A stretch of DNA of 64,000 nucleotides from Rotaria socialis (Eukaryota). Positions 8,753-58,280 of this stretch are shown here, piece after piece; position 1 is the first letter of the stretch; each line of letters begins with the position of its first letter. Made by a program: the position numbers and the translations under genes. The stretch covers positions 407,310 to 471,309 of the forward strand of contig CAJNYT010000051.1 of assembly GCA_905331485.1 (NCBI GenBank), given 5' to 3'. The notes under the pieces are model-generated. The model saw only the letters and a program-made list of their open reading frames with translations. It was not told the origin of the DNA and did not search any database.

Positions 8753-8959
8753 ATGGATACATCAATAAATGATGTCGAACCACCAAATCACGAAGAAACA
8801 GCAATAAATGGTGGCGAAGAAGAGGCACCAACAGAAACAAAAACAGGCAAACGAAAACGTTCAACCAAAAAGTCTGCTGAAACGGATGAAAGTTCTACAC
8901 CAAATTCTCGTCCAAGACGTACACTACCAAAACGTAAATCAGATTTCCTTAACTCGTAA
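8753..8959 (+). CDS. Possible 5' exon or uORF of the PWWP gene (basic/acidic KRKR-rich, 68 aa). It is in the same frame as the 8963 ATG and separated from it by a single TAA
   Basis: ATG at 8753. The ORF ends TAA 8957-8959, immediately upstream of ATG 8963 in the same frame. Splicing out an 18-nt gtaaaatatgcatgttag segment (8956-8973) would fuse the two frames, but an intron that small is implausible. Confidence 0.25.
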   Translation: MDTSINDVEPPNHEETAINGGEEEAPTETKTGKRKRSTKKSAETDESSTPNSRPRRTLPKRKSDFLNS

Positions 8960-8962
8960 AAT

Positions 8963-12541: not shown

Positions 12542-12543
<2 letters not shown>

Positions 12544-12576
<33 letters not shown>
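12544..12576. repeat. Compound microsatellite (AT)n(AG)n
   Basis: atatatatatatagagagagagagagagagag. Confidence 0.9.
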
Positions 12577-12579
<3 letters not shown>

Positions 12580-12910
12580 CAGTATTCTACGTTAAAGTCT
12601 TCATCGCTCTTCGTACTTTCATGAAAAACAAAATAATTTGAAATAATGATAAATATTGATATTTTCTGGTGAGCCATACTATCGCTTTCATAGTATTTTT
12701 TCCAGTTTTGAAAGCAAATCCGGCACTTCTCTTGTATTTTACTTTTTGTTCCTCACTCAAGCATTCTATTGGCATCAGGTAAGCACCAGTTTCACTTAAC
12801 TGTTCGGTCAAGTTATTTTCCGATGAAAAAACAATGGATACTTCCAGGTCATGTCTCTTTAGCTTTTTTCTTGCTATTTTCAAGATTTAAAAACTTTCCA
12901 TTATAAACGA

Positions 12911-14250
12911 ATGCAGTTTAATAAGAGTACTGACAATACTATCCCAAATGCTATTGTCCAACCGTCACCATCGGCTGATCAAATTGAAATCAAACGAATT
13001 CGAAAAATTCTTTTGGTCTTGGTTGGCTTTTTCTTCGTGAGTTTATTTAACGATTACTGAAAGTTAGAGGAAAACACACTCAAATATTGGATAAACTTTA
13101 ACTTAACGGATCAGCGTCTTTACTTCACTCTTAACGAACAAATTCAGATTGAAACTTTTATTATCGTCAATGTATTTTAATTAAACAAATCATATGACTA
13201 TGTAAATATTCGTTTTGTAGGTAATATCTGTGTTGAATATGTTAAAAAGGAGCTTGCCGATTAAGAATCAAAGTGATTCAACAGCCAATATGAACGTTTT
13301 TATAGTTGGAATATCATTTCTGCCGATTCTATTTGATACCTTTGGAATCTTCGTCATTCGTGGATACCATCGAAAGGGCGTGTCTGTGGTATGTTAAGTG
13401 TTTTTCGCTTCCTATTTTCTGACGAAAATAGAGATTTATATGCATCGGATAAAGTGCTTAGGCACGGAAAAGATATTTGCCTGGCAACTAGAATCAGGAT
13501 AAAAGTTATTTTTTAATTCAGAATTATACATTTCATAGTTACTTAATATTTGCTCGAATGTACCAATTTATGCGTTATATATTTCAACTAGATATGAAGT
13601 AGATCAGTATCAAACAGCAATTGTAATTGTTTTCAAGTGATTTGGAAACGCTTCTTTCTTTAACGAAATCAGCTAATCTGGTTGAAACGTAATATACTCT
13701 AACGAAAACTAGGAAAACCATAATTAATCATTGATTTGATAACATTCCTTTTAAAAAACTAGCTAAAGCAGTATATTGAATGTGATACGCTTCAGGTGCG
13801 TATTGATTCATCCGAAAAATGTTTCGAAATCTTTTTCATAGTACGTGTGTGTTCTTTAGGAGAAATTTTTTAAAATTAATATTATGTGAAATGACGTGAT
13901 CAAATAAATTTCTTTTTTTAAATATTATCAATCACTAGTTTGCATGGCTCAAGACGATCGAAATGATATTCATTGGCTTTTTTCTGGCGTTTATCATTTA
14001 TGTCATTGGTCATTTATTATTTACTACGGGCCAAACTGATCGTTCTAATCGCTACTCGAATATTCCCACTGTACTCCTTATCGTGATTTTTGCGTTGTTT
14101 GCAGTTTGTGTTGCTTTAAAAGTAAGTAGTGTTTCGTTTTCATTTTGCGGATATACTTTAACTATTTTCAGGTGATCGTCATAAAATATACTTTCAAATT
14201 GGCACGACTACTTAAAAGTGAGGAACAGTTCAACAATCTCACAGTCTAAT
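12911..14250 (+). CDS. Small multi-pass (about 4 TM) membrane protein of unknown family; 184 aa, 4 exons (paralog A)
   Basis: Exons 12911-13036 (gtgagt donor), 13221-13388 (gtatgt), 13939-14121 (gtaagt), 14173-14250 (stop TAA 14248-14250). The translation is MQFNKSTDNTIPNAIVQPSPSADQIEIKRIRKILLVLVGFFF|VISVLNML...FIVGISFLPILFDTFGIFVIRGYHRKGVSV|FAWLKTIEMIFIGFFLAFIIYVIGHLLF...IVIFALFAVCVALK|VIVIKYTFKLARLLKSEEQFNNLTV. Confidence 0.65.
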
Positions 14251-17200
14251 TTTTCTCGTATACTGTATTATAATATATGTTGTTTCGTCTATGTAGTATA
14301 CAATTTTTTTCTATATTACTATCTAGAATACTTCTTGCATTCAATAAACTAAAATAACTGTAGTATAATAATAACAGAATCATATATTACTGCAAGAGGA
14401 GCAAAATCTGAAAAACAGAACAATCAAAATATCGAACAACTCTGATGGCATCCAGACTCGTCTTCTTATAATGATCTGATATAGTTTATCTTGAGAGTAT
14501 TTACCTTATATAAGATTGAAGTTTCTACAAGAAAAATTCAACGAACAGGAGCAGGAGATCTTTCAAAAACACGGGAGAATATTTTTTATCATCTGTGTTG
14601 AAAATTTCTGGGAATGATCAATCCTTATGTGCATTTTACATGTGTTTGTTCTTGTATCCTCTGAATATTGTTTGCGAATGATAAAGAAATACAATCGGGA
14701 TTTCAGCTGAATTATTTATAGCAAAGGCTTGATGAATAATGTCGAGTTTGATGAGAACTAGATGTATCTTATTTGAAAAATCCAATGTTAAACTATAAAC
14801 ACATGAACGACATTGTTGTGAAAAAAAGACGAAAACAGAAAAGTTATTATTTCATCTGAGATAATGTTTTCAGATGATTTTTCTAGTAAGTATTACAAAA
14901 AATAACAACGCAATCGGGAAGAATTACAATTAATAATCTATAGCACAACATAGATGCTGGTGGTAAGAATTTAGTAAACATATTAGCTCGACCGAATATA
15001 CTGAAATTCTGTCGAATTATTCATTTACTGAATAAATTGCTTTGAGATTTGCATTTTCAGAAAGGAACGTGCTGTTTTTCCCGCTAGAACCACATTTCAC
15101 AATGGTTTCGATTTCTAAGGAATGGGAGACTACTTTAACGTTCAGTATATATGGAGAGATTTCGTTTCAAGTATAGTTGTATCCTGATATAACAGAAGTT
15201 GTGGAAAAAACGCAAAGATAGTTAAGAGAAGTAAGATTGAGTTTGAGTGAGTTCTCTGTGGCTAGACACATTGGTGATTTCGCAACGATTCGACATCTAC
15301 TTCCGTCTTGGTCGCTCGATATTCTTTTCGAAGTTCGACAAACTAGAACTAACGCATCTCTCAATGAGTATTTAGAAGTCGTTCGATTTCTCTTGGGAAA
15401 AAGTGTGCTTAAACAGATGCAATGAAAGATCTCTTCAATCGATCGATCAATAGTTGCAACAACGAAACTCCTAAAGCAGAATGTTTCACAGGACGTATGT
15501 ATTCTGCCTTTACAGCTTCCGGTAGTTTGGATGAGCGTAACATGACTGGCGATGATCTCTGGTCGAACAAAGTTGGCGAGTTCATCACCGATAAAGCATT
15601 TATGTTCACGTCAAAGTAATGTGGCAGCAGAGATGCAAAAGATCTTGTTTGTTCACTGTATCTACCACGACACGAGTAAGCTCTGAATATCTGAATAAAG
15701 CAGAACTGTCCATTCCTCTCGACATTCCATTGACAGTAATCAAAATAAACCTTGGATAACCGATGATGATAATACTTACTCGTTGATAATTATTTCAATT
15801 CGCGAACGAATTTGATAGAAGCACTCTATATTCGAATAATAAGAAAAATCAGTTCTGTTATAGAAAACCAAGTAGAATGCATATACAAACTCAAGAAAAA
15901 TGATTTAGAGAACTATAATGAATGCGCGCTTCAGAATGTGGCGTATGCACTGTGCGGAGAAAACTATCTGGAAACTGAAATCCACTCTTTATCTAACGTA
16001 AATTAGGTGATACTAATAACTTTCAATAGTATGAAATTATTTCACTTTAAGACAATTGATAAAATATTCAAAGAGATTCACATTTATTTTCAGTTTTTTA
16101 TTACTTTTCTGGAGGTCGTTCGTCGTTGATAATAAAACTTTTAGAAATCAACAAGGAGATATAAAGAGTGACTGAAATTTAACCGTACCTGAAGGATCAA
16201 GAAGAAACTTCTCGTAGTTTTTTTTTCAACTGGATTCTTCAATAAATCAATATAATTTGTTAGTCTATTGTAATCCTATTTATTCATTTCAGTTTCAGAT
16301 AAACAATAAAATACGTTTTGAATATCAACAGTCAATGGAATATTTATTTCAAATAAACTAATAAAAAATATGTTGCTATGTCATGAAATGTAACCAGCAA
16401 TAGACAAAAAAATCGATTGGTGAGATAAATGTTCATTTCAAGCGGGAAAATACCGTTCAGGTCAAAAATGAATTCTTTTCCCATTCTGTCTATAACAGAA
16501 GACAAACTATATAAGTGTAAGTCAGCGTGTGTATACTAAATTTATATTGAGTACTTTTGTCGTCACTGTTCAGAAAAGAGATTCGTGCATATTCAACATA
16601 TTCCATGCTCCACAGAACTTTACAAACACCAAATATGAGTACTTTTCATTCTTCACATTCGTTCTTTCCCAACGATTCATTGAAACCAAATTTCTTATCA
16701 GCTCTGTGACATTTGTCATGCATCACCACAAAACTATGAAAGCTTTCCCTGATATCGTAAATGATTTTCGGCATCCCATCTTCTTGCAAATTTCCCCATC
16801 ATTGTTTTAACCAAAGTCAACCAAAATCTAACCGACTGTAAATTTTCCCAAGTACTGTGCAAACTCCTTTTTCTCTTATCGCGAATACCTGTACGTTCAT
16901 TTCGATTACATACGAACGCATTTTTCTTCTATGGGAAAAATGATTTTTCATTTATGCAAACTATTTTTCTCATTGAGTTTTACAGTGGTTTGACGTTATT
17001 GGGGGAACGGGATATTTTCGTTACTGTTTTTTTTTTGTTTACTGTGTGTACCGTAAGTTTAGTTTTTAAGCATTTTTGACATGTACGTCATTTTTCCGCT
17101 TGAAACGAGCATTTATGTCACCGATCAAATATTTGTCTAATCCTCAATGTAACTGGTGAACTACGATAGAACAGTTTATTTGAGAGATAGAAAAGTTTAT

Positions 17201-17883
17201 CTAAGATATTTTGTAATAGTCTATAGAATCTTTTCATTTTTCGTAAGTAAGAGACCACGAGCTAACGAGAAGAGAATACAAAAAAAAGAGTAAACAATGG
17301 ATTTGAAAAGAATGTTAACTTTATCGATTATCGCGCTTTACTTCTACTCTCTTCTTTTGTTATTCTTAAATTCCATTTCATACTGCTGATCTTATCAATA
17401 CGTGATTCTTTTTCTCTTATAAAATCTGAGCTGATGCGAACGTAGAGATACGGCGGTTGGGCTGATATTAAACAGTTCAACAAATATCATGATTGACTAG
17501 AACAATACTCATTCATACATGTTGAAGATACACTTCTCAACACGCTTAAAAGATATAGTAACTTTCTATATGCCTGATACTAGACGTACCGTAACACATA
17601 TGGACTGAAGTTACCGTCGAATGACATGCTAATGCAAACATTTTGTATTTTTCATTTTTCTTCTGCGTGACTTCTGTTAAAACTACGGTGAACTATGATA
17701 AGAAATTCATTTATCTTTATTTAGCTGAATCGATAATAAGCTAAATTTCTTTTCGTGTTCCATTTACTTTTTTTTTATTGATGAGAGAAATTTACAAAAA
17801 AGCATTTATCGTTTCTTCTGCATTTATTTCGAAGATTCAATTAGCTTTTGCTTATTATTCAAACACAATACACCAAAGAAAGT

Positions 17884-19659: not shown

Positions 19660-20671
19660 TTTATCTTCTTTACTAAATTGAAAAAATATGTTTTATTTGA
19701 TCTACGTAGTATTCAATTTTATTCTGTAATATTAGCTAGAATACTTTTTTTCTCTCAACAAATTGAAATAAATGTAGTATTATAATAATGAAATTATATG
19801 TCGCGAAAAGAGGCGTATACTCTTAATGAAAGAAATATTAAAACCATCGATCAAATCTAACGGCATTAATGAATTAGACTTATCTTCTTATAATAAAAAA
19901 ATGCATTATATCTGTTGAGAGTACTTGCCGTACATACAATTGCAATTTCTACAAGAAGGATGTGGGTGTGAGTTATACGAATACTCAGGTGTCTAAACCC
20001 ACAGCCACCGTCACGCCCAACTTTGTACTATTTGGAAACCTTTCTGAAAAGGTGCCTAGACCAAGCTCGTATATAAAAAAGTTTCAAGGGAAAAAATTGC
20101 GATACAACTGTGCATTTAATTCAAAAAACATTTTCTTTAGAAGCGAATCGTTTTATTTTTTGCTTCTCCATCATGCCGACAAGTCAAAGCTTGCATTAAC
20201 CAATGCATCACCCCACCTATTAAAAAAGAGACAACTAGTAATAAAAGGTAACAGTAGACATCCATGCTACGACTCATAACCTGTATGGTTCGACTGAAAA
20301 AAGTGAATTACTCACCTACAGCGAATGATGATGCATTAATATCGACATTGGTCTAAATAAAAAAAAAAAACACTAGACTCATAAAAGATCAGGCGTGATA
20401 CTTACTGTTGGTGCTTCTTTACCATTATTTAATTCATTCAACGATTATTGCTATAACGAGAATAATAAGAAAAGATATTTTTATTCGAAATGGAAGAAAT
20501 GCTTCTTACGGAAATCGTGAGAATACTACGAGCTAAATGATTGCTATCGGGTTGCGCCGACAACTCTTTGGATAGCTAAAAAGGATGAAAATTAATATGG
20601 ATTGAAGAAAATATTGAATACTTGAAATACCTCAGCTCTCTGTTGTATGAACACGTTCTCATGTAATAAAA

Positions 20672-21135
20672 ACCGCATGAAAATCGGCGGTTAACCGCGG
20701 TTTTGCCGGTCCGGTTACCGGCTCTCATTACCGCATAACGGATAAATACCGCGGTTTACCACAAAAAATGAACTGGCATTTACCGCGGGAAACCGCCGGT
20801 TTTGATTAATACCGAGGTTACCGCTAAAAAAAGCGGTTAACCAGTTCATCTATAATTTTTCACAGAAAAAGTCTTCCAAATCATCAATTAATCTATTTTA
20901 AAGATCTTTTTTTTTAACTTTTACATGTGATAAACATGCGCAAAAAAACGCCGGTTTACCGCGGTTTTACCGGTCCGGTTACCGGCTCCCATTACCGCAG
21001 AACGAATAAATACCGCGGTTTACCGCAAAAATTGATCAGGTATTCGCAACATGGGTTACGCAGAACGAATAAATACCGCGGTTTACCGCAAAAATTGATC
21101 CGGTATTCGCAACATGGGTTACGACGTTCATCAAT
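20672..21135 (+). repeat. CCGCGG-rich dispersed repeat element, copy 1. Two sub-units are separated by an AT spacer. The 3' 48-bp motif is tandemly duplicated
   Basis: Dense accgcgg / ccggttaccgg motifs in an otherwise AT-rich context. Its reverse complement recurs at 51530-51910. Confidence 0.8.
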
Positions 21136-21235
21136 ATATTCATTGGTATGGTCCATCAAGAAGAAATACTAAAGATAAATAGATTAAAAACCGTAATCTA
21201 ATATAGCACCTAATTAAATACCAAGTGTTTTCTCT

Positions 21236-21500
21236 CCCAGGTCGAACAGTCCGGTCTGGAAACGGCAGGTTCCGTGTAGTTCCGTTAATTTTGTGGAAGC
21301 AGTATTCCGGTTGGAAAATTTTCGCATTTTTCTGGTGATTTCTGATTAATTCCTGCCGGAAAGCACCGGAACTTGCCAGGAGTTCGCCGGAAAAGTTCGG
21401 TCGTATTTTTCACCAGAATACAGCTTCCATGTTCCAGCAATTTCCCGCATATTTCCTGCAGTATCCTACGAGATCCGGCGGCCGGAATGTTTGACCCTGG
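21236..21500 (+). mobile_element. MITE-like foldback element (about 265 bp), copy 1. TIR CCCAGGTCGAACA...TGTTTGACCCTGGG
   Basis: Terminal inverted repeats plus an internal palindrome (ggaagcagtattccgg / ccagaatacagcttcc). 85-90% identical to 48821-49117. Confidence 0.75.
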
Positions 21501-43894: not shown

Positions 43895-45076
43895 ATGAAA
43901 TGGCTCTATTTTATCCTATTATTAATGGTGGCTATGCTTGTTTGTTTTGCGAAAAATGAACAGCAAACAGTGATATCTGAAATATATTCACTTGATGGCG
44001 ACTTCGACAAGATTCGGGCATCTGAACACATACAATTCGAATTGACTCACGTCAATAGTGAACCGAGTGTCATCATCGAAACGGAACAATGGTTGCATAC
44101 AGGCCAATATATAACTGTCACAACAAGACCGAATGATTGTTTGTATCCATGATTTGAAGAATACTGTCAGCTTTTACTCATAGCGTCCCATTTCCTTTAT
44201 GAATGTTAAGAAGAAGCACTTGATCTATTCAAACATGAAACGGGTTTTTTGAATATATTTCTATATGAAGAAAAAGATAGTTGAGCAAAGAGAAATATTG
44301 ATTTAATAGATTTCTTGAGCAGATTTGTTAGTTCAGTCTCATCGCAATGTGTTGCAAGTAAAGAAAAACTTTTATTTTTACCTTTTATTCTGAAGACACT
44401 TTATTGAAAAAAAAAAGAATTATTTCAAATTTGTTTGGCAGATCTTGATATCAAATTGGCGAGCGGCACTAATTATCCAGCAATCAAAGTGTATGTTAAT
44501 TACCGCAAAGCTCTCCTTAGTTTGGAAATAGATGGAATGTCGTCAATGAGATCAAGAAACGTCATTTTTAGTAATCCTTCATCGCTTTTGAATATTGCAC
44601 ATTCTGGAGCTGGCAGCGCAATACTCAAACTACAACACGGTTCTAATATTAATGTTGCCATATCTGGTACAGGCCAACTCTCTTTGTCCGGTCGAGTTCA
44701 AGGGAATGGACGATTGAGCGTCTCAGGTACTGCGCACTTGGATGCAATCGAGTGTCCAATGAATATTGCGACTGCTGAAGTGGCTGGATCTGGATCAGCT
44801 TCTGTTTATGGTGTAAAAGGAGTTCATGCCACCGTGAGTGGAGTTGGTAACATTTGCTATCGAGGACCTTTGCTTAGTCAAGTGATAAGTGGTCTTGGCT
44901 CGATCAAAGAGTGTATTGTTGAAGGGACACCTGCAGAACCTCAACAAACAGCTACAGAACCTCAACAAACATCTACAGAACCCCAAAATTCATCATCGCA
45001 AAGCGACAAAATCATGGATAGAAATCAACGATTATTAGTGATTCTTGCTACTACAGTTTTCTTTCTCTTCTTCTAA
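43895..45076 (+). CDS. Secreted, GPI-anchor-like protein with a Gly/Ser-rich beta-solenoid region resembling the bacterial DUF2807 (putative adhesin head, GIN) fold; 2 exons
   Basis: Exon 1 about 43895-44138: signal peptide MKWLYFILLLMVAMLVCFA, then NEQQTVISEIYSLDGDFDKIRASEH.... Candidate donor gtttgt at 44139 and acceptor tttggcag at 44441. Exon 2 44442-45076: ...AHSGAGSAILKLQHGSNINVAISGTGQLSLSGRVQGNGRLSVSGTAHLDAIE...VAGSGSASVYGVKGVHATVSGVGNICYRGPL..., followed by Pro/Thr/Gln repeats (TPAEPQQTATEPQQTSTEPQ) and a hydrophobic C-terminal tail (LLVILATTVFFLFF), stop TAA 45074-45076. Confidence 0.55.
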
Positions 45077-48670: not shown

Positions 48671-48820
48671 CACCGTTTTCTTGGACCTGGGTGGTTTCTC
48701 GTACACTTGGAAAAATAGTGCTGCTCATTTCAACTATTTCTCCTAATGACATATTCATCAATACACGTTGATTCACAATAGCCAAATCATCACATAAAAA
48801 TGTTGCAAACTCCTTGGTAT

Positions 48821-49117
48821 CCCAGGTCGAACAATCCGGCCTGGAAACGGCCGCTTCCGGGTAGTTTCGTTGATTTTGTGGAAGCAGTATTCCGGTTGGA
48901 AATTTGTCGCATTTTTTCCGGTGGTTTACGATTAATTCCTGCCGGAAAGCACCGGAACTTGGCAGGAATTCGTCGGAAAAGTCCGGCCGTATTTTTGACC
49001 GGAATACTGCTTCCATGTTCCAGCAATTTTCTGTGTTTTCCTGCAGGGTATGGTGCCTTTTCCGCATATTCCCTGGAGTATCTTACGGGATCCGGTGGCC
49101 GGAATGTTCGACCTGGG
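48821..49117 (+). mobile_element. MITE-like foldback element, copy 2 (about 297 bp), with a perfect 13-bp TIR CCCAGGTCGAACA / TGTTCGACCTGGG
   Basis: Direct-orientation homolog of 21236-21500. Internal palindrome gtggaagcagtattccggttgg / accggaatactgcttccatg. The overlapping ORFs on both strands (48666-49192) are artefacts. Confidence 0.8.
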
Positions 49118-50108: not shown

Positions 50109-50188
50109 GTGTGGGGTGTGGGTGTAGGGTGTAGGTGTGGGTAGCGGTGCACAGACACAATATCAGCATTCACATCCCACACCCGTAG
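50109..50188. repeat. TG/CA-rich palindrome (gtgtggggtgtgggtgtagggtgtaggtgtgggtag ... cacatcccacaccc), overlapping the apparent 5' end of the GTPase fragment ORF
   Basis: TG1-3-like tract followed about 25 bp later by its CA-rich complement. Confidence 0.7.
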
Positions 50189-50877
50189 TTTCTCTGAATA
50201 GTATTATGAAGAATGTCAATAATGTTCTACAATACGGAAAACAAATGCAACATGGTACTAGCATACCTGTCATATGTGTACTCAGTAAAATCGATGAGTA
50301 TTTCCAAGGCCAAGCGCCTAATTGTGAAGACGATGTCAAACAACTGGAAGAATATACTGAAAGAGCTTTAACGTTGGTAAATAAGTACTTGATTGATCCA
50401 GCTGTCCAATGTATTCCCATATCAACAAGATGCAATTATGGTGTTGACCAACTTCGGCTGAGTATCAATGCTCAATCACCACTGAATGCTCAAATCATTG
50501 ACAAAAATCTTGATTACATTAGCCGATGTCGACTATCAATAGCCAATAAAATTATAGGGGCTTTTTCTACAGCTTCTGCAGCAGCATCGTTTCTACCTCT
50601 TGCGAACATCGTCATTGTAACTTTCTTAAAAGAATGGATGTATCGAATGTTGGCTTGTTTTTCAATCGACCCAAATCGAACCTCGGATACGTTCAAAGCG
50701 GTGCATCGTATGCAACAAACTGCTAGTGTAGCTATTCGTGTTGGTGCACTCTTCATTGGAGGTGTACTTCAATTAAGCATTGTGGGCTACTTTATTGGCA
50801 CGAGTATATGTGTAGTTACAGCCGCAACATCAACAGCTGCTCTCGGTTGGGCATCCTATTTTTACTTTGTTGACTAG
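50137..50877 (+). pseudogene. 3' portion (or terminal exon) of a TRAFAC-class GTPase gene (GTPase C): G4-like LSKID, C-terminal transmembrane anchor. No G1/G3 motifs are present in the ORF
   Basis: Translation ...IPVICVLSKIDEYFQ...CIPISTRCNYGVDQLRLSI... ends with hydrophobic TM segments (LPLANIVIVTFL; GALFIGGVLQLSIVGYFIGTSICVVTAATSTAALGW), stop at 50875-50877. The upstream region is a TG-rich repeat rather than a P-loop exon. It could be a genuine last exon whose 5' exons lie outside a recognisable range. Confidence 0.45.
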
Positions 50878-51250
50878 ATAGAAGTTTGTCGTTTCTACGC
50901 AAACACCATTACCAGAAGGCATTCTATGAAACTGAATAAATCTAGAGAGAATGAGTATTGAAAACAGGATTTTTTCGTTCTTTCAACAGTTTATTTTGCT
51001 CTCTTAACTGTAACGCGTTGTTTTTTGAATGTTCTAAATAAAGACTTCATTTCGATTCAATGAATATTAAATTTGCTACTTTTCAATCATAATTTTTCCT
51101 GAAGTACCTGCCTGATTCCTTTTTAGTAAATAATCGTTACATGAATGGCAACAAATATCTGGATGTATAGATCGAGTGAGCGTTTATCAGTCTATTCATA
51201 ATTATCATTTTTAACGGAATTTTTTTTCTAGAAAAAAAAGCATTTCTATG
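50761..51250 (+). repeat. Direct repeat copy 1 (490 bp): last about 40 codons plus the 3' UTR of GTPase C
   Basis: About 93% identical to 56999-57466. Both end at ...aaaagcatttctatg. Confidence 0.9.
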
Positions 51251-51361
51251 TGGGTGGGTGTGGGTGTGTCATAGATGTCATAATACCGTTACACTGAGTA
51301 TTGTGATGAGTGTGGGTGTGTGGGGGTATATAAGCAAGACACACACCCACACCCTCACCCT
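51251..51361. repeat. TG-rich block (tgggtgggtgtgggtgtg), then a TG/CA palindrome (gagtgtgggtgtgtggggg tatataagcaagaca cacacccacaccctcaccctc), immediately 3' of direct-repeat copy 1
   Basis: Read directly. It marks the left boundary of the putative inserted cassette. Confidence 0.8.
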
Positions 51362-51529
51362 CAAGAAAAAAAAGTTTTCCTATTTTTCTATTCTAACAGG
51401 AAAGTGCATATGACAATTATAATTCGAATTCGAAAAAAACCTTTTTCCTAGTTTTCCTATTTTCCTGTTGTCGAATGGGAGTGCTAGTTGAATTTTTATT
51501 TATTTTCGAAGTAACTTGATGCACTCCCA

Positions 51530-51910
51530 TGTTGCGAATACCGGATCAATTTTTGCGGTAAACCGCGGTATTTATCCGTTCTGCGGTAATGGGAGCCGGT
51601 AGCCGGACCGGTAAAACCGCGGCAAACCGGCGGTTTTTTGCGCATGTTTATCACATGTAAAAGTAAAAACAAAGGATCTTTAAAATAGTTTAATTGATGA
51701 TTTGGAAGACTTTTTCTGTCAAAATTTATAGATGAACCGGTTAACCGCCTTTTTTAGCGGTAACCGCGGTATTAATCAAAACCGGCGATTTACCGCGGTA
51801 AATGCCAGCTCATTTTTTGTGGTAAACCGCGGTATTTATCCGTTCTGCGGTAATGAGAGCCGGTAACCGGACCGGTAAAACCGCGGTTAACCGCCGATTT
51901 TCATGCGGTT
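51530..51910 (-). repeat. CCGCGG-rich dispersed repeat, copy 2 (reverse complement of 20672-21110)
   Basis: ccgcggtatttatccgttctgcggtaatgagagccggtaaccggaccggtaaaaccgcggttaaccgccgattttcatgcggt is the reverse complement of 20672-20755. The AT spacer is also conserved. Confidence 0.85.
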
Positions 51911-51997
51911 TTTATTACATGGGCTTGAAGCTTCATTTATATTCGAATTCGAATTAGGTATATCATGGCTTTGATACAGATATTAGCCTCATCTAAG

Positions 51998-52553: not shown

Positions 52554-54464
52554 TCATGTATTGTTTCCGTATAAGTAACTCACGACTTGGTTCTGGCCTC
52601 GTTTATTTGAAAGGATCTTCACAGTAGCATCGTAATAGCGTTTCATATCTATGTTTTCGTCCATTACACTAATAGTTTTATTGAATTTTGTGAGTAAATC
52701 TTGAGTTCGACCAATAATGTCATAGTTTTTTTTTATTGAAAGTAATGCAGTGACTTTTGCTTTTAATTGTGTTAACGATGAGTTTATTTCTGTTTCCAAC
52801 TTTTGCTGTCTGGCAATCAAGTGTTGTGCTTTAGTTTTTAACATAAATTCTTGTTGTTCAGCATAAGTATAATGTGATCGAGTCTCATTATCTGGTAATG
52901 TTACTCGGACTTTTGCTGTTTGTTGTCGATACATAGGATTATGGGGATTATACCCATCATCATGATCATAATGAGCCTTACTGTATTTCTGATCATGTGG
53001 TCGTTCTCTTGAATATGTGTCATGTCTCTCATCACGATCATGTGATGCTGAAATCTTATGATCTTTACCACAGGTTTCAGCAGTCGCTGATGATGAAGGA
53101 TATCCAGCAGTTCGAGCAGAATATGGTCTTGTAGTTGAATGTGTGCTGTTGTGAGAAGAATCATGATGAAATGAAGTATCGGTATTCTGTTTTAATGATG
53201 ATGAACACGTAGAAGAACGGCTTTCTTGAGGATCATGGTGATGATGATGATTGGATGAAGGATTTTTATACTCTGGTGGCTTGCAATGCTGACCAGTGTC
53301 ATTATCAGTATGCGCCGAAGGATTATTTTTATGCATGTAGTCATCATTCGTTGAATATGAACCGTGTGGATCTCGATTAACAACAAAAGATCTCGAGGTG
53401 TCTTTTTCACAACTCCTTCCTGACGAAGAGGCGCTTTGTGCTGATGCTGGTCGACGATTTTCAATAAATTTCGATGGATTTTCTGATTTTGCGGGTAGTA
53501 GTGATCGTGATTGATGTTGTGGTGATTGATCCCAACGCATAACTGTGATTTCTTGATCTTTTTCCCATTTTTCATTACATTGCATTGTATGGTGCGCATT
53601 GCTAATGCCATCTTCTGTTGCAGTTTGGTCTTTATATATATTAATTAGACTGATAATTTTGTTGATAGCCTCAATAATACAATTTTCAATTAAAGCTATT
53701 TTAATACCACCAATTTCGAATACTTGTGTTGAAACGCTATTAAATTGTAACAATTTTCGCACTAAAGTTTCAGTTATGTCCAGAGTGTCTTCAAAATCTT
53801 GTTCAAACCGACGTATTGCTTTTGATGATTGATTTTTGGGGTTCCATCGAAATAAGCTATTTTGCAAGTGAAATACCCTGCTATCATCTATTTTAAAATG
53901 ATCATGTAATATTGCTGGATCTAAATTAACACTAAGTTTATCACAATTTGTCAAAACTGCAACACAATTGTTTAATAAATCATTTGGCCATATTTGATAC
54001 AATGAATGTAAAACGTTTTTGAATGACACACCGAGACGTGGAAGAGCACCGTTTATAACAATAATAATTCCATTTAGGAAAGGTAATTGTTTTAGAGTCT
54101 TTTCAATGCAGTCCAAATTTCTTTCATCGACATCGAAGCCGTTTGTGTCATTGAATCCTGGTGTATCAATTAGTTCGAGATAAAAATCTGCTGTTCGAAA
54201 TGAATACGTCATGCATTTCTGCGTCTGACTTTGTATTTGATCATTAATATCACGTTCACTGTGCTTATTTCGGTATTTCTTATCAAGACAGTCCAACCAA
54301 TTTGCACATGGTATAGATAATTTAACTTGTGGACTAGTACAAAAAATATTTTTTGGATCTTTTGTACCATAACTCATATTATACAAAAAGTTAATTAATG
54401 AAGATTTTCCGACACCAGCATCGCCAAGTAAAATAAAACGTTTCGGCTCGCGCGCTGAGGTCAT
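52554..54464 (-). CDS. Intronless TRAFAC-class P-loop GTPase A (636 aa): N-terminal G-domain, then a His/Ser/Thr-rich disordered region and a C-terminal coiled coil; GIMAP/AIG1-Toc34-septin-like
   Basis: Full-length ORF with G1 LLGDAGVGKSSLINFL, G3 LIDTPGFNDTNG, hydrophobic IIIVINGAL and G4-like VLTNCDKL. HHHHHDPQ and S/T/H-rich low complexity in the middle. Heptad-like C-terminus (LIARQQKLETEINSSLTQLKAKVTALLSIKKNYD). Coordinates taken from the ORF track. Confidence 0.8.
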   Translation of the reverse strand: MTSAREPKRFILLGDAGVGKSSLINFLYNMSYGTKDPKNIFCTSPQVKLSIPCANWLDCLDKKYRNKHSERDINDQIQSQTQKCMTYSFRTADFYLELIDTPGFNDTNGFDVDERNLDCIEKTLKQLPFLNGIIIVINGALPRLGVSFKNVLHSLYQIWPNDLLNNCVAVLTNCDKLSVNLDPAILHDHFKIDDSRVFHLQNSLFRWNPKNQSSKAIRRFEQDFEDTLDITETLVRKLLQFNSVSTQVFEIGGIKIALIENCIIEAINKIISLINIYKDQTATEDGISNAHHTMQCNEKWEKDQEITVMRWDQSPQHQSRSLLPAKSENPSKFIENRRPASAQSASSSGRSCEKDTSRSFVVNRDPHGSYSTNDDYMHKNNPSAHTDNDTGQHCKPPEYKNPSSNHHHHHDPQESRSSTCSSSLKQNTDTSFHHDSSHNSTHSTTRPYSARTAGYPSSSATAETCGKDHKISASHDRDERHDTYSRERPHDQKYSKAHYDHDDGYNPHNPMYRQQTAKVRVTLPDNETRSHYTYAEQQEFMLKTKAQHLIARQQKLETEINSSLTQLKAKVTALLSIKKNYDIIGRTQDLLTKFNKTISVMDENIDMKRYYDATVKILSNKRGQNQVVSYLYGNNT

Positions 54465-54922
54465 GTTTCTTATTTTTTAAGCAGAATGTAATATGAAATG
54501 AGTTGTCTATACTATTGCAAAGTATCGAGCTTATATATTCAGAATGCAGTTGACTTTTTCCTACTCGTTGATGTATCTTATCAAGACTCTTGAGAATATT
54601 TACTAAGAAGAACAAAGTTTATTGCTCTTGGAATATATTGATGCAAATTTTCAGCATATAACATACAGAAGCAAGGAAGTACATGCCTATCTCAACCGTT
54701 CGAGAGACTTCAATGGTCTATGTTGGAACAAATAAGAAGATATGGCAATAAAGATTACAAGCGAATTTTTGTCATTGCAGTAAGTCAAATCAAACAAATT
54801 TACATTTTTTTTCCAAGTTTTTGCTTTGTTCGAAATTACATGTCTACATGTATATATAAATTACTTCAAAAAAAATACATCATTATACATCAAAAATTAA
54901 AAATTAAAAGCCAAAAGCGAAG
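54465..54922. promoter_or_regulatory. About 458-bp divergent intergenic region between GTPase A (-) and GTPase B (+); presumed bidirectional promoter
   Basis: Head-to-head gene arrangement. No element verified. Confidence 0.4.
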
Positions 54923-56416
54923 ATGTCTTTTTCCAGTATTACCGTGTTCTCCTGCTCTACCGTCCGAAAGGAGTCGAATCCAAATATTATCATTCTATTC
55001 ATTGGTGAATCAGGCTCAGGCAAATCAACTTGTATAAATTATTTTGCCAATTATTTTACCAATTCTTCATTTGATGAAGAAGATCATTATTCAAATATGA
55101 AAATTGTTATACCAAACAGTCTATTTCCTGAGCCGAATTTTCCTGAGGGACACCATCGACATTGTGAGCGTAATGTACATGATACTAGTATGAGTCAAAC
55201 GCAAGAATGTACTGCTTATGATTTTCGATGGAATGGGCAATGTATCAAAATTATAGATACACCTGGTTTTAATGATACAGATTCCCATAAAGATGATCAA
55301 AATATTCAGAAAATCTTGACACAAGCTTCACAAGTTCCATTCATTAATGCTATTGTAATCACGATCAATGGCACAAATGTTCGTTTATCAACATCCATCA
55401 AAACAACATTGAGTCAACTGCGTAGTTCATTACCAGATAAAATTTTTAAAAATTTATTTTTTATCTTCACAAATTGTACTGAAGAAACTAGAAACTTTGA
55501 TTTATCCCTGATTTCTGAATTCAAACCATCAGAAGAACGAACATTTCATATGCAAAATGCATTGTTTTCCATCAAAGATAAGTCGTTACTTCAAAACACA
55601 AAATCAGTACGAAAAATGGCACAAACATGGAAGGAGTCGGTAGAAACAATGGGCGAAATAATGCAGGAAATAAATCAAACATCGGCTACATCGGTACAAG
55701 TATTTAATGATATGAGAATTCGACGAGAACAACTGATTGTACACAAGGAGAATTTGATTGAAAAACAAAAGTCTTTGCTAAATATCATGAATACATTGCA
55801 AATTGAAAAAGAGCGTTTGAAAAATGCCTCTGAAGATCAACAAGCAAACAAAAATTTCACGGAATCAAAACGTATCAGCGTTATTGATATAGAAAAAAAA
55901 TCATATTATAGTACAATTTGTCTGAGACATGGTAAAGTACAAGTATGCCATGAGAACTGTTCGTTATCATATGAGCCCAAGTTGAATTTGCATCATTTTC
56001 AACAATGTGCTGCTGCAAATGGATCAAATTGCCGACATTGTGCGTGTGGAATGAATGACCATTTACATTCTTACGAAATTCCAGTATCACGACTAAAAAC
56101 GGTTGAAGAAATCATTCAAAGTAAAAAGGCTGCTTTTGAACAAGCCAATAGAAATATAAAAAGTAGTAGCGATAGAGTTGTTCTCTTAGAGCGTGTTCGA
56201 GATGCTTGTCAGAATGAGGTTAATGATATTAAAGATGGCTTGTTGACGACAATAAAGGAGTTGAAACAAATTTGTTCACACTTCAATTTTCACGATGAAA
56301 TGAATGGTACAATACAAAAGTTAAGAAAAGAAGCTAAAATTGCAACAGACTTTAAAGCAAAGCAAGAATTCACTCGAACAGCCAATGCCATTGAACATTT
56401 TATCAATCGAATTTAA
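54923..56416 (+). CDS. Intronless TRAFAC-class P-loop GTPase B (497 aa), a paralog of A: G-domain, Cys/His-rich segment, C-terminal coiled coil
   Basis: G1 LFIGESGSGKSTCINYF, G3 IIDTPGFNDTDS, VITINGTNVRL and G4-like FIFTNCTEE. Shared blocks with A (SQTQ(K/E)C(M/T)(T/A)Y.FR, ERTFHMQNALF / SRVFHLQNSLF). CxxC/His cluster CHENCS...CRHCACG. Coiled-coil tail. Coordinates taken from the ORF track. Confidence 0.8.
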   Translation: MSFSSITVFSCSTVRKESNPNIIILFIGESGSGKSTCINYFANYFTNSSFDEEDHYSNMKIVIPNSLFPEPNFPEGHHRHCERNVHDTSMSQTQECTAYDFRWNGQCIKIIDTPGFNDTDSHKDDQNIQKILTQASQVPFINAIVITINGTNVRLSTSIKTTLSQLRSSLPDKIFKNLFFIFTNCTEETRNFDLSLISEFKPSEERTFHMQNALFSIKDKSLLQNTKSVRKMAQTWKESVETMGEIMQEINQTSATSVQVFNDMRIRREQLIVHKENLIEKQKSLLNIMNTLQIEKERLKNASEDQQANKNFTESKRISVIDIEKKSYYSTICLRHGKVQVCHENCSLSYEPKLNLHHFQQCAAANGSNCRHCACGMNDHLHSYEIPVSRLKTVEEIIQSKKAAFEQANRNIKSSSDRVVLLERVRDACQNEVNDIKDGLLTTIKELKQICSHFNFHDEMNGTIQKLRKEAKIATDFKAKQEFTRTANAIEHFINRI

Positions 56417-56959: not shown

Positions 56960-57113
56960 AGTATCGAGTTTTCTCCTATGTGCGCCCACACTCATCCAGG
57001 TGCACTTCAATTAAGCATTGTGGGCTACTTTATTGGCGCTGGTATATGTGTAGCTACAGCCGCAACATCAACAGCTGCTCTCGGTTGGGCATCCTATTTT
57101 TACTTTATTGACT
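56960..57113 (+). pseudogene. Orphan 3' remnant of a GTPase-C-like gene (TM-anchor tail only), within direct-repeat copy 2
   Basis: The translation ..HPGALQLSIVGYFIGAGICVATAATSTAALGWASYFYFID-stop is about 90% identical to the C-terminus of 50137-50877. It is preceded by a CA-rich block (gtgcgcccacactcatcc) and no upstream exons. Confidence 0.6.
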
Positions 57114-57466
57114 AGATAGAAGTATGCTGTTTCTACGCAAATACCATTACTAGAAGACATTCTATGAAACTGAATAAATCTAGAGAGAATGAGTATTGAA
57201 AACAGGATTTTTTTGTTCTCTTAACTCTAACGCGTTATTTTTTCAATGTTCTAAATAAAGACTTTTCATTTCGATTCAATGAATATTAAATTTGTTATTT
57301 TTCAATCATAATTTTTCCTGAAGTTCCTGCCTGATTCCTTTTTAGTAAATAATCGTTACATAAATGCCAACAAATATCTGAATGTATAGATCGAGCGAGC
57401 GTTTATCAGTCTATTCATTATCATCATTTTTAACGGTTTTTTTTTCTAGAAAAAAGCATTTCTATG
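56999..57466 (+). repeat. Direct repeat copy 2 (468 bp) of 50761-51250
   Basis: Collinear alignment throughout. It is followed by unrelated sequence (ttaacaag), whereas copy 1 is followed by a TG-rich block. Confidence 0.9.
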
Positions 57467-58280
57467 TTAACAAGTTTTAAAAACCAATAAACATCTTCAT
57501 CCCTATATAAGTACTGGAACATAAATAGTATTCATACATGATTCTGACCCTCAAAAGAATTTATTTATTCATTCTATTTCAGTCAGTTCGAAAAAAAAAG
57601 ATTTAATGCAAAACTGTACGATCATGTTTATGTCTTGCTAATGAAGATAAGACAAGTCATGATTCTGACAACGATAATATATTCCTTAAATGTCATTCGC
57701 TGTACAATTCATTCCTAATAATAGTTAAGTTGATGATTGCAATCGACTGAAGTCAAGTTTAAGTAGAAGAACAAATTAATTATGTATATCAAAAAGAAAC
57801 TCTTTCATCTTCTAGCAACATGCAACACTAACAATAGTAGGATAAATCCTCATGGAATTCAAGTTCATGAACACATATAATTAGTTTTTCCATAGAAGAA
57901 AAAACAAAAAAAAATTAATATGAATCTTTCTTTTTCTCGACATACATTTATTTATAATAAATTTAAGGTAAAAAAATATTAGCCACCCGATGTTTTCTAA
58001 TTGTATGTGACACAACTTGCATCACAAATATATGATTATATCATATTTAATTATACGTCCGACGGCCAACGTCTGTTTTCTAAAAAAATCAAAACAATTC
58101 CTCTGTTGATCAAATTTGACTTGGCAATCATTTTGTTTTCTTTCTTTTCCGATGCTACTGATGAATAAAAGATCTTCTCAACATATTTCATTTGTCATGC
58201 AATAAACAATGCGTGCTACAGTACGATAATAATTGTCCTAGAGTATGTTGCCTTTTTTTCTTCTTTAGACAATCATTATC

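What the first reader, a model, noticed from the sequence alone, without database searches (positions are those of the whole stretch)
52554..56416. Novel paired TRAFAC GTPases with divergent C-terminal modules
Both proteins share a G-domain with G1 GxxGxGKS(S/T), G3 DTPGFNDT, a hydrophobic INGxxxRL box and an unusual G4-like TNC(D/T). This places them nearest the AIG1/GIMAP-Toc34-septin clade. Each is fused to a different middle module: a His/Ser/Thr-rich disordered region with an HHHHH run in A, and a Cys/His cluster (CHENCS..CRHCACG, candidate zinc-binding) in B. Both end in long coiled coils. The apparent loss of the canonical Asp in the G4 of B (TNCTEE) suggests altered nucleotide specificity or a pseudo-GTPase partner. 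The divergent arrangement suggests co-regulation as a heterodimeric pair
Basis: partly seen in the sequence, partly recalled or inferred. Interest (0 to 1): 0.65.

Follow-up and report, generated by a model that had tools for sequence, protein, structure and literature searches.

The report
Paired GIMAP-like GTPase genes, bdelloid rotifer
Two back-to-back, intron-free genes in a bdelloid rotifer genome encode sister GTP-binding proteins related to the GIMAP/AIG1 immune-associated GTPases; the pairing is real and ancient, but they belong to a very large, already catalogued and unstudied protein family and are not a wholly new kind of protein.

Summary
ORF A (52554..54464, minus strand, 636 aa) and ORF B (54923..56416, plus strand, 497 aa) are intact, intronless, divergently oriented genes of Rotaria socialis. 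They are paralogs: 30% identity, BLASTP E=5e-40, and profile-profile probability 100% over the full length.

Behind the G domain both proteins share one scaffold: a long helix, a long beta-hairpin, then a long helix. B carries a conserved Cys/His module on the hairpin. A has a variable Ser-rich disordered loop there instead.

The family is huge and patchy (1568 clusters at E<=1e-30). It occurs in rotifers, mosquitoes, tardigrades, nematodes, amoebae, Heterolobosea and probably giant viruses, and I found no experimental work on it. The A-type was found only in bdelloids.

All 9 further loci checked show the same head-to-head pair, and the A and B trees mirror each other. Co-regulation is well supported. 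Heterodimerisation and an immune role are inferred.

B is not a pseudo-GTPase: its catalytic motifs, an Arg aligned to GIMAP7's arginine finger and a conserved Glu in the G4 loop are all present.

The parts
52554..54464 (-). Gene A: intronless 636-aa A-type GIMAP/AIG1-like GTPase, including the stop codon
   Evidence: ORF. It is 99% identical to the annotated R. socialis protein P0073. tblastn gives a single HSP in orthologous loci.
53847..54443 (-). A G domain (aa 8-206). Contains the P-loop GDAGVGKSS (54399..54425), DTPGFNDT (54144..54167), the conserved box INGALPRL with Arg143 (54033..54056) and the G4-like TNCD (53940..53951).
   Evidence: Motif coordinates. Invariant columns. AF2 secondary structure.
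53526..53726 (-). A ascending long helix (aa 247-296) and first hairpin strand (aa 301-313)
   Evidence: AF2 model of A, pLDDT about 80-87 in this stretch. It aligns to B residues 259-333 in hhalign.
52932..53525 (-). A disordered Ser-rich insert (aa 314-511), which takes the place of the Cys/His tip. Includes the copy-specific HHHHH run (53235..53249).
   Evidence: pLDDT 31-40. Ser is 19% here and 16.7% pooled across A-types; insert length is 88-377 aa in orthologs and paralogs; no other copy has a His run longer than 2.
52611..52931 (-). A second hairpin strand (aa 512-524, the conserved V-T-L-P-D-N-E motif), descending long helix (526-577) and terminal helices (583-618)
   Evidence: (D525 and N526 invariant).
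54465..54922 (.). 458-bp shared 5' intergenic region, a putative bidirectional promoter
   Evidence: Head-to-head geometry with 226-511 bp spacing recurs at every other locus checked. No conserved sequence motif was detected across four loci.
54923..56416 (+). Gene B: intronless 497-aa B-type GIMAP/AIG1-like GTPase with a DUF8206-type Cys/His module, including the stop codon
   Evidence: ORF. It is 99% identical to the annotated R. socialis protein P0001. Pfam AIG1 scores 35.9 bits, above the 27-bit cutoff.
54986..55570 (+). B G domain (aa 22-216). Contains the P-loop GESGSGKST (55004..55030), switch-I Thr93, DTPGFNDT (55256..55279), the conserved box INGTNVRL with Arg154 (55364..55387), and the G4-like TNCT-E187 (55469..55483).
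   Evidence: Arg154 aligns to GIMAP7 Arg103. Glu at the fifth G4 position in 31 of 34 B-types.
55697..55846 (+). B ascending long helix (aa 259-308)
   Evidence: AF2 model, pLDDT 87-93.
55859..56113 (+). B long beta-hairpin (aa 313-333 and 380-397) enclosing the Cys/His module (C333...H382, 55919..56068)
   Evidence: AF2. C333, C342 and H380 are invariant; H343, C346, C362, C370, C373, C375 and H382 are at least 90% conserved across 42 sequences. No PDB sequence relative.
56117..56410 (+). B descending long helix (aa 399-450) and terminal helices (456-496)
   Evidence: AF2.

Best explanation
**What the pair is (shown).** A and B are a co-inherited, divergently transcribed pair of paralogous GTPases of the bdelloid rotifer Rotaria socialis. 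They belong to a large, patchily distributed and experimentally uncharacterised eukaryotic family. Each protein has an AIG1/GIMAP-Toc-type G domain followed by a helical module. That module runs long helix, long beta-hairpin, long helix. Because the hairpin strands are adjacent, the two roughly 50-residue helices very probably run antiparallel and form a stalk; this is inferred from topology.

**How A and B differ (shown).** In B, as in most family members, the hairpin encloses a conserved module of about 50 residues with 10 Cys/His positions, corresponding to Pfam DUF8206. Zinc binding by this module is inferred. In A the same position holds a poorly conserved Ser-rich disordered loop of 88-377 residues.

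**History (shown by tree and synteny).** One inverted tandem duplication in a bdelloid ancestor produced the A/B pair. The pair then duplicated as a unit into at least four lineages. It kept the head-to-head layout with a 226-511 bp shared upstream region in every locus examined.

**Mechanism (inferred from family knowledge).** Both proteins keep the P-loop, the switch-I Thr and DTPG followed by a hydrophobic residue. Both also keep an invariant Arg in the 'INGxxxRL' conserved box, and this Arg aligns with the catalytic arginine finger of GIMAP7. The most likely mechanism is therefore nucleotide-dependent G-domain dimerisation, with the Arg supplied in trans, as in GIMAP7/GIMAP2 and Toc33/Toc159. 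The co-expressed A and B would form homo- and probably hetero-oligomers. The B tip would act as the ligand- or partner-binding end, and the A loop as a regulatory or scaffolding element.

**Biological role (inferred, weakest step).** A stress- or pathogen-related, GIMAP-like function.
For: **Identity and host.** Searches give 99% matches to R. socialis proteins. The neighbouring genes are metazoan (an IRK channel and a WD40/LisH gene). Synteny with the A. vaga WD40 gene rules out contamination.

**Paralogy over the full length.**

**Scaffold.** The AF2 model of B has pLDDT 85.8. The model of A has the same topology with residues 314-511 disordered.

**Conservation.** Catalytic and Cys/His residues are conserved. 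Arg154 in B and Arg143 in A align to GIMAP7 R103 in two independent alignments. GIMAP7 activates itself and GIMAP2 by dimerisation with an arginine finger (PMC8066113, quoted; primary source Schwefel et al. 2013, from my own knowledge). Toc33's dependence on dimerisation and R130 is reflected in the PDB entry titles 2j3e and 3def.

**Pairing.** The head-to-head A(-)/B(+) layout was found at 9 of 9 further loci. These cover A. vaga (two pairs), Didymodactylos carnosus, three R. socialis assemblies of this locus, two paralogous R. socialis pairs and two unnamed rotifer-like contigs. At least 17 A/B homolog pairs share contigs.

**Co-duplication.** The NJ tree has A and B as sister clades with mirrored sub-clades. 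Bootstrap support is B 100, A 74 and A+B 72. Distance matrices correlate at r=0.81, with 0 of 2000 permutations reaching that value.

**Family size and spread.**
Against: - No experiment or complex prediction links A and B physically. Adjacency and co-duplication could be passive, because segmental or whole-genome duplication copies neighbours together.
- No conserved promoter motif was found.
- No expression data were available. The bdelloid pathogen-response paper does not mention these genes in its main text.
- The Arg-finger equivalence rests on sequence alignments that place a 2-residue gap next to it.
- Zinc binding is inferred only from Cys/His conservation.
- An immune role rests on analogy and on lineage-specific expansions alone.
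- G4 is degenerate, so even GTP specificity, as opposed to ATP or another NTP, is not established.
- The antiparallel-stalk geometry is inferred from secondary-structure order. I could not inspect coordinates.
Confidence: 0.6

Rival explanations
1. A and B are independent paralogs. They are ordinary tandem duplicates that act separately, each as a homo-oligomer. Their adjacency and mirrored trees arise only because block duplications, including bdelloid tetraploidy, copy neighbouring genes together.
For: Bdelloids are degenerate tetraploids (established knowledge). Tandem arrays of the same family occur elsewhere without any A/B differentiation, for example six paralogs in a row on L003 and many Aedes paralogs. 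The Aedes homolog has no partner within 10 kb. No shared promoter motif was found.
Against: Across at least four pair lineages and at least five species, 9 of 9 further loci keep both genes intact, head to head, within 226-511 bp. This holds despite 45-70% protein divergence. A-type proteins were found only next to B-types. A has lost the family's conserved tip module yet stays under constraint, with invariant TNCD, Arg143 and the VTLPDNE motif. That pattern fits a dependent partner.
Confidence: 0.25
2. The pair is a horizontally acquired or virus-derived gene, from a giant virus, fungus or protist. It would now be a domesticated or still selfish element, and not a host GTPase system of metazoan descent.
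For: Both genes are intronless in an intron-rich genome: the other ORFs in the window are under 300 aa and the neighbouring gene models are multi-exon. The distribution is extremely patchy, covering amoebozoans, Willaertia, Aedes, a tardigrade, nematodes and Glomeromycota. One homolog sits on a contig with an intein-containing ribonucleotide reductase and helicases, which is typical of giant viruses. BFVD holds Hokovirus and Pithovirus AIG1 proteins that align over about 320-330 columns. A published claim exists of AIG1-like HGT from Rhizophagus into nematodes (PMC6872716). Bdelloids are known for massive HGT.
Against: The closest non-rotifer relatives are only about 30-35% identical, so no donor can be named. 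GC content matches the host. The position is stable and syntenic with metazoan genes between Rotaria and Adineta. No transposon hallmarks bracket the pair in all species; the 490-bp flanking repeat is specific to R. socialis. This rival concerns origin, not present function, so it is compatible with the best explanation.
Confidence: 0.3
3. B, or A, is a catalytically dead pseudo-GTPase that merely regulates its active partner.
For: The canonical NKxD G4 motif is absent from both proteins. The window's A copy has Lys at the GIMAP-register acidic position.
Against: B retains an invariant P-loop Gly/Lys, switch-I Thr93, D112-x-P114-G115, Arg154 and Asn212. A retains the equivalent residues. B-types carry Glu at the GIMAP-aligned acidic G4 position in 31 of 34 sequences, and human GIMAP7 itself has Glu there in the alignment. 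G4 degeneracy is family-wide, not specific to B.
Confidence: 0.1

Closest known systems
GIMAP / IAN / AIG1 GTPases (vertebrate GIMAP1-8, plant AIG1; Pfam PF04548)
   Same: These are the best structural and profile matches to the G domain: GIMAP7, GIMAP4, GIMAP1, GIMAP2 and GIMAP5. Shared features are DTPG followed by a hydrophobic residue, a conserved hydrophobic box after G3 with an Arg aligned to the GIMAP7 arginine finger, a G4 that lacks the canonical Asn, helical extensions after the G domain, and genes that occur in clusters of paralogs.
   Different: There is an insert of about 45 residues between G1 and switch I with its own conserved motifs (I63, P64, E82). G4 is T-N-C-x-x instead of T-[RH]-K-[ED]-[DE]. 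The C-terminal half is a helix-hairpin-helix module with a Cys/His tip (B) or a disordered loop (A), which no solved GIMAP has. No C-terminal membrane anchor is evident. Sequence identity is only 15-19%.
Toc34/Toc33/Toc159 chloroplast import GTPases
   Different: The rotifer proteins have no plastid context, no transmembrane anchor and a different C-terminal architecture. NCBIfam Toc34 (TIGR00991) scores 14 bits against a cutoff of 421.
AIG1-like plus DUF8206 proteins of protists, nematodes, tardigrades and mosquitoes (uncharacterised; e.g. Dictyostelium purpureum XP_003286087, Steinernema hermaphroditum 'DUF8206 domain-containing protein', Aedes albopictus LOC115267199)
   Same: They match the B profile over its full length, with E-values from 1e-83 to 1e-186 among the best 150 representatives. 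That includes the stalk and the Cys/His tip. This is the family to which B belongs.
   Different: Outside bdelloids no A-type partner was seen: the Aedes locus has none and the A-type search found only bdelloid or rotifer-like proteins. Outside bdelloids the genes are single or in same-type tandem arrays. Many carry extra N- or C-terminal extensions.
Septins
   Different: Septin matches are largely confined to the P-loop region. There is no septin-unique element or AKAD-type G4, and the distribution is patchy and not housekeeping.
Rad50/SMC-type head, antiparallel coiled coil and zinc hook (analogy only)
   Same: A P-loop NTPase head, a long antiparallel helical stalk and a Cys-based metal site at the far end. 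BFVD lists SMC/SbcC-like proteins at low probability.
   Different: The NTPase class is different (TRAFAC GTPase versus ABC ATPase). The stalk is far shorter, at about 50 residues per arm. The tip is a 10-Cys/His module, not a CxxC hook. The low-probability BFVD matches are not evidence of homology.

Membership tests
TRAFAC-class P-loop GTPase | Walker A GxxxxGK[ST], switch-I Thr, Walker B/G3 DxxG | tested here: met
   A has G14-S21, T81 and D100-G103. B has G28-S35, T93 and D112-G115. All are invariant or nearly invariant in the family alignments.
TRAFAC-class P-loop GTPase | Canonical G4 [NT]KxD that confers guanine specificity | tested here: not met
   G4 is T-N-C-D-K in A and T-N-C-T-E in B. 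The Lys is replaced by Cys. The acidic residue is conserved within each bdelloid type (A pos4 Asp 27/27; B pos5 Glu 31/34) but variable in the wider family. Deviation of this kind is usual in the septin/GIMAP/Toc clade (established knowledge).
AIG1/GIMAP (Pfam PF04548) | Score above the Pfam gathering cutoff (27 bits) | tested here: inconclusive
   B scores 35.9 bits and passes. A scores 25.3 bits, just below the cutoff. Both matches cover only part of the model.
AIG1/GIMAP (Pfam PF04548) | GIMAP/Toc-type G-domain fold as the closest structural neighbour | tested here: met
AIG1/GIMAP (Pfam PF04548) | Conserved hydrophobic box between G3 and G4, carrying the catalytic or dimer-interface Arg | tested here: met
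   AIVITINGTNVRL in B and GIIIVINGALPRL in A align to GIMAP7 AIVLVLQLGRY. Arg154 and Arg143 fall opposite Arg103. The Arg is at least 90% conserved in B-types and invariant in A-types. Its catalytic role was not tested.
AIG1/GIMAP (Pfam PF04548) | GTP-dependent dimerisation or oligomerisation | not testable with these tools
   This needs biochemistry or a multimer prediction. Only single-chain prediction was available.
AIG1-like plus DUF8206 family (PF26633) | Cys/His module C-x8-CH-x2-C ... C-x7-C-x2-C-x-C-x4-H-x-H between two long helices, C-terminal to the G domain | tested here: met
   B has it at C333..H382. A does not: the module is replaced by disordered residues 314-511. Direct scoring against PF26633 was not possible, because the local Pfam copy appears to lack it: a UniProt-named DUF8206 protein gave no such hit. 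The link rests on full-length homology to proteins that carry that annotation.
Septin (PF00735) | Septin G domain with the septin-unique element; score above the Pfam cutoff | tested here: not met
   Neither A nor B gave a Septin hit at E<=1. PDB septin matches are mostly limited to the P-loop.
Housekeeping ribosome-associated GTPases (Era/EngA/YihA/RsgA) | Equivalog-level NCBIfam or Pfam match and universal distribution | tested here: not met
   The best NCBIfam scores are 14-20 bits against cutoffs of 42-421. MMR_HSR1 matches cover only the P-loop in A and 61 residues in B. The distribution is patchy.

The most novel reading that the evidence does not exclude
A and B form an obligate heteromeric GTPase machine, a previously unrecognised type of invertebrate and protist cell-autonomous defence module. 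The B subunit's zinc-bound tip, at the end of a helical stalk, would sense a pathogen-derived or damage-derived ligand. The A subunit would have traded that tip for a phospho-regulated disordered arm and would supply trans-activation and scaffolding through its arginine finger. The wider DUF8206 GTPase family, found from amoebae to mosquitoes and giant viruses, would then be an ancient immune GTPase lineage parallel to the GIMAP, IRG and GBP families.
Probability: 0.2. Interest if true: 0.65.

Novelty: new variant of a known kind. Interest (0 to 1): 0.42.

Why it matters
GIMAP/AIG1 GTPases are linked to lymphocyte survival in vertebrates and to pathogen responses in plants, and they are often described as missing or sparse in invertebrates. 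This locus belongs to a very large relative of that family, with more than 1500 clusters at E<=1e-30, spread across protists, ecdysozoans, rotifers and probably giant viruses. Its architecture (G domain, helical stalk, Cys/His tip) has no solved structure. I found no experimental literature on it.

The bdelloid A/B pair is a natural experiment within that family. One partner keeps the tip and the other has replaced it with a disordered loop. The two have also stayed locked head to head through repeated duplications. That makes the pair a tractable entry point for asking whether these GTPases work as hetero-oligomers with an arginine finger supplied in trans, as GIMAP7 and GIMAP2 do, and what the tip binds.

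The value is moderate. The finding extends a known kind of protein and does not reveal a new principle.

Tried and rejected
- **Housekeeping GTPase assignment (Era, EngA, RsgA, septin proper).** Rejected. Only P-loop-level matches were found, far below the curated cutoffs.
- **Third paralog in the window.** tblastn of A and B against the window found none.
- **ORF 50137..50877 as a third member of the system.** It is a 5'-truncated fragment of an unrelated MMR_HSR1 plus DUF697-like GTPase. It flanks the pair only in R. socialis.
- **Conserved bidirectional-promoter motif.** Across four intergenic regions, nothing was shared beyond a 7-mer, GTATATA.
- **Informative domain fusions in long family members.** None were found.
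- **AFDB Foldseek search.** The library was unavailable.
- **Literature.** There were no papers on DUF8206. None links AIG1 or GIMAP to bdelloid genes or to Aedes. The bdelloid fungal-pathogen transcriptome paper does not mention GTPases in its main text.
- **Apparent 681-aa A variant in assembly L009.** This is an assembly-gap artefact, not a polymorphism.
- **First bootstrap script.** It timed out and was re-run with a faster distance routine. A few saturated distances gave NaN warnings there, so the bootstrap values for A are approximate.
- **A+B complex prediction.** Not attempted.

Full report
**1. Observation**

The window is AT-rich (about 32% GC). A lies at 52554..54464 on the minus strand (636 aa). 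B lies at 54923..56416 on the plus strand (497 aa). The next longest ORF in the 64 kb is 288 aa. With a stop-codon frequency of 0.075 per codon, the expected number of ORFs of at least 497 codons is about 2e-12.

The two proteins are paralogs: BLASTP gives 30% identity over about 300 residues with E=5e-40. Profile-profile comparison of their families gives probability 100% and E=3.9e-63 over the whole length.

**2. Source and annotation status**

Both proteins match 'unnamed protein product / G domain-containing protein [Rotaria socialis]' at 99% identity. Three R. socialis assemblies carry the same locus at 99.3-99.7% nucleotide identity. The neighbours are ordinary metazoan genes: an inward-rectifier K+ channel and a LisH/WD40 protein. 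A WD40 gene also follows the orthologous pair in Adineta vaga. The pair is therefore resident in the rotifer genome and is not contamination.

Both genes are intronless. tblastn gives single full-length HSPs in the orthologous loci.

**3. Which kind of GTPase**

- Pfam gives AIG1 as the best family: B scores 35.9 bits, above the 27-bit cutoff, and A scores 25.3 bits, just below it.
- NCBIfam housekeeping GTPase models score far below their cutoffs.
- A profile of 42 B-type sequences finds GIMAP7 as the best PDB sequence (E=5.7e-7). Septins and GIMAP4 follow, mostly through the P-loop.
- hhalign against GIMAP7 gives probability 96.3% and E=1.5e-9.
- The AlphaFold2 model of B is confident (mean pLDDT 85.8).
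- Foldseek's first 23 PDB hits are all GIMAP1, 2, 5 or 7, or Toc34/33.

**4. Catalytic features**

In the B-family alignment the P-loop Gly and Lys, Thr93 (switch I), D112, P114, G115 and Asn212 are invariant. Arg154 of the 'INGxxxRL' box is at least 90% conserved. In the A family the equivalent residues, including Arg143, are invariant.

HMMER and hhalign each place this Arg opposite Arg103 of GIMAP7. Arg103 is the catalytic arginine finger supplied in trans in the GIMAP7 dimer. This is from my own knowledge of Schwefel et al. 2013; the principle is restated in PMC8066113. Toc33's dimerisation dependence and its R130 appear in the PDB titles of 2j3e and 3def. The residue after DTPG is hydrophobic (Phe), as in GIMAP, Toc and septin GTPases, which lack a cis catalytic Gln.

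B-types have Glu there in 31 of 34 sequences. A-types have an invariant Asp one position earlier and an acidic residue at the canonical position in 21 of 27. The wider family is variable at both positions. G4 is thus degenerate family-wide. B has not specifically lost it, and nothing marks B as a pseudo-GTPase.

**5. Architecture behind the G domain**

The B model shows these elements in order:

| Residues | Element |
|---|---|
| 226-252 | helices |
| 259-308 | a 50-residue helix |
| 313-333 | a long beta-strand |
| 334-379 | a compact Cys/His region |
| 380-397 | the return strand |
| 399-450 | a 52-residue helix |
| 456-496 | two terminal helices |

The two strands are adjacent and the two helices have equal length. 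The helices therefore very probably run antiparallel and form a stalk, with the hairpin and Cys/His module at its far end. This is an inference from topology, because I could not inspect coordinates.

Ten Cys/His positions are invariant or at least 90% conserved across 42 sequences that reach down to 21% identity: C333, C342, H343, C346, C362, C370, C373, C375, H380 and H382. That is enough for two metal sites.

The module has no sequence relative in the PDB. In more distant family members it is annotated as Pfam PF26633, DUF8206. The local Pfam copy appears to lack that model.

The A model has the same topology: helix 247-296, strand 301-313, strand 512-524 and helix 526-577. Residues 314-511 have pLDDT of 31-40. 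Across 26 A-type proteins this insert is 88-377 residues long, Ser-rich (16.7% pooled) and unalignable. The HHHHH run occurs only in the window's copy.

A and B therefore do not carry two different fused modules. They share one scaffold, and in A the tip module has been replaced by a disordered loop.

**6. Family size and distribution**

An exhaustive profile search found 8873 clusters (50% identity) at E<=1e-3 and 1568 at E<=1e-30. Most of the best 150 representatives match over nearly the full profile length.

Named members come from the following organisms:

- the bdelloids Adineta vaga, A. ricciae and A. steineri, Didymodactylos carnosus and Rotaria species;
- Aedes albopictus (many paralogs) and Aedes aegypti;
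- the tardigrade Paramacrobiotus;
- the nematode Steinernema;
- the amoebozoans Dictyostelium purpureum, Acytostelium, Pelomyxa and Phalansterium;
- the heterolobosean Willaertia;
- a Gigaspora protein with a kinase fusion, matching over the G domain only.

One homolog sits on a contig with an intein-containing ribonucleotide reductase and helicases, which resembles a giant virus. BFVD holds Hokovirus and Pithovirus AIG1 proteins that align over about 320-330 columns.

Tandem arrays occur: six paralogs lie in a row on L003. The nematode 'AIG1-like' expansion attributed to transfer from Rhizophagus (PMC6872716) may be the same family. I could not test this.

I found no paper on DUF8206 and none on these bdelloid genes.

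**7. The pairing**

A-type proteins were found only in bdelloids or rotifer-like environmental contigs. At least 17 of them share a contig with a B-type protein.

I fetched 9 further loci, and every one has the A-type gene on the minus strand directly upstream of the B-type gene on the plus strand, 226-511 bp apart:

- two pairs in A. vaga (L001, L006);
- D. carnosus (L004 and L005);
- three R. socialis assemblies of this locus (L007-L009);
- two paralogous R. socialis pairs (L012, L013);
- two unnamed contigs (L010, L011).

A neighbour-joining tree of G domains puts the bdelloid A and B clades as sisters, apart from other family members, including other A. vaga paralogs. Bootstrap support is B 100, A 74 and A+B 72. 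The four sub-clades of A mirror the four of B. The pairwise distance matrices of the partners correlate at r=0.81, and 0 of 2000 permutations reached that value.

The simplest history is one inverted tandem duplication in a bdelloid ancestor. The tip module was then lost in one copy, and the pair duplicated repeatedly as a unit.

**8. Mechanism**

Shown:

- two intact, conserved GIMAP-like G domains with all phosphate-binding and Mg-binding motifs and an Arg aligned to a known trans-acting finger;
- a shared stalk-like scaffold;
- a conserved Cys/His tip in B and a disordered loop in A;
- an obligatory head-to-head layout.

Inferred:

- a bidirectional promoter that gives co-expression, although no conserved motif was found;
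- nucleotide-dependent G-domain dimerisation with Arg-finger activation, probably including A-B heterodimers by analogy with GIMAP7/GIMAP2 and Toc33/Toc159;
- zinc binding at the B tip, which would act as the ligand or partner interface;
- regulation or scaffolding through the A loop;
- a stress- or pathogen-related role, suggested only by family analogy, lineage-specific expansions and tandem arrays.

**9. Rivals**

1. Passive adjacency of independently acting paralogs remains possible, since block duplication alone copies neighbours together. The 9-of-9 retention of both partners, and the constraint on a tip-less A found only beside B, argue against it.
2. A horizontal or viral origin is plausible given the lack of introns, the patchy distribution and the giant-virus homologs. 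It cannot be settled, because the nearest non-rotifer relatives are only 30-35% identical. It concerns origin and not present function.
3. The pseudo-GTPase idea is not supported (section 4).
4. A housekeeping GTPase is excluded (section 3).

**10. Verdict**

This is a real and well-delimited feature. It is correctly placed near GIMAP/AIG1. It is best described as a bdelloid-specific paired variant of a very large family of AIG1-like GTPases with a DUF8206 tip, a family that is catalogued but has not been studied experimentally. The conserved pairing and the tip-for-loop swap are the new and useful points. Heterodimerisation and an immune function remain hypotheses. Interest is moderate.

Noticed in passing
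window 50185..50874 (+) and 56999..57112 (+): These are fragments of a different GTPase gene. The first stretch encodes aa 177-406 of a roughly 406-aa bdelloid 'MMR_HSR1 G domain plus DUF697-like' protein. The best hit is 89% identical (R. socialis and R. magnacalcarata). The N-terminal G-domain half is absent from the window, and the ORF is not in the R. socialis gene models. It is probably a 5'-truncated pseudogene. A second 38-aa fragment of the same gene end lies just downstream of B.
   Followed up: partly
window 50760..51251 and 56998..57467: A direct repeat of about 490 bp, 89.5% identical, brackets the A/B pair. It consists of the last roughly 115 bp of the DUF697-type GTPase gene plus its 3' flank. 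It is present in the R. socialis loci L007-L009 but not in A. vaga or Didymodactylos. This points to a Rotaria-specific local duplication or rearrangement around the pair.
   Followed up: partly
window 51526..51921 versus 20660..21055 (inverted, 95%); 48820..49046 versus 21235..21461 (88%); internal 122-bp repeats at 51537..51657 and 51801..51921: Dispersed, transposon-like repeat copies lie between the GTPase fragment and gene A, and again near 21 kb. They were not classified.
   Followed up: no
L012 9766..11485 (-), R. socialis paralogous pair locus; L006 1..1109 (-), A. vaga: Further GTPase genes sit near paralogous pairs. One gene model in R. socialis has AIG1 (weak) plus RING/zf-rbx1/E3_UFM1_ligase Pfam hits. 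An IIGP/MMR_HSR1-type GTPase lies about 3 kb from the A. vaga pair. This may indicate clustering of GTPase genes.
   Followed up: no
L012 about 3198..4285 (-): In one R. socialis paralog, the A-type coding sequence is interrupted by about 1.1 kb between residues 91 and 97. This is an intron or an insertion, unlike the intronless window copy.
   Followed up: no
L003 (ENA metagenome contig k141_669421, GC 49.5%) 5836..17520: Six family paralogs lie in tandem on one 30-kb contig from an unidentified organism. One carries a DUF8206 hit.
   Followed up: partly
window 44435..45076 (+) region / L007 1..860: The upstream gene model carries Pfam DUF2807, a domain I know mainly from bacterial proteins. 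It could be a candidate for horizontal acquisition in this bdelloid genome. This was not examined.
   Followed up: no
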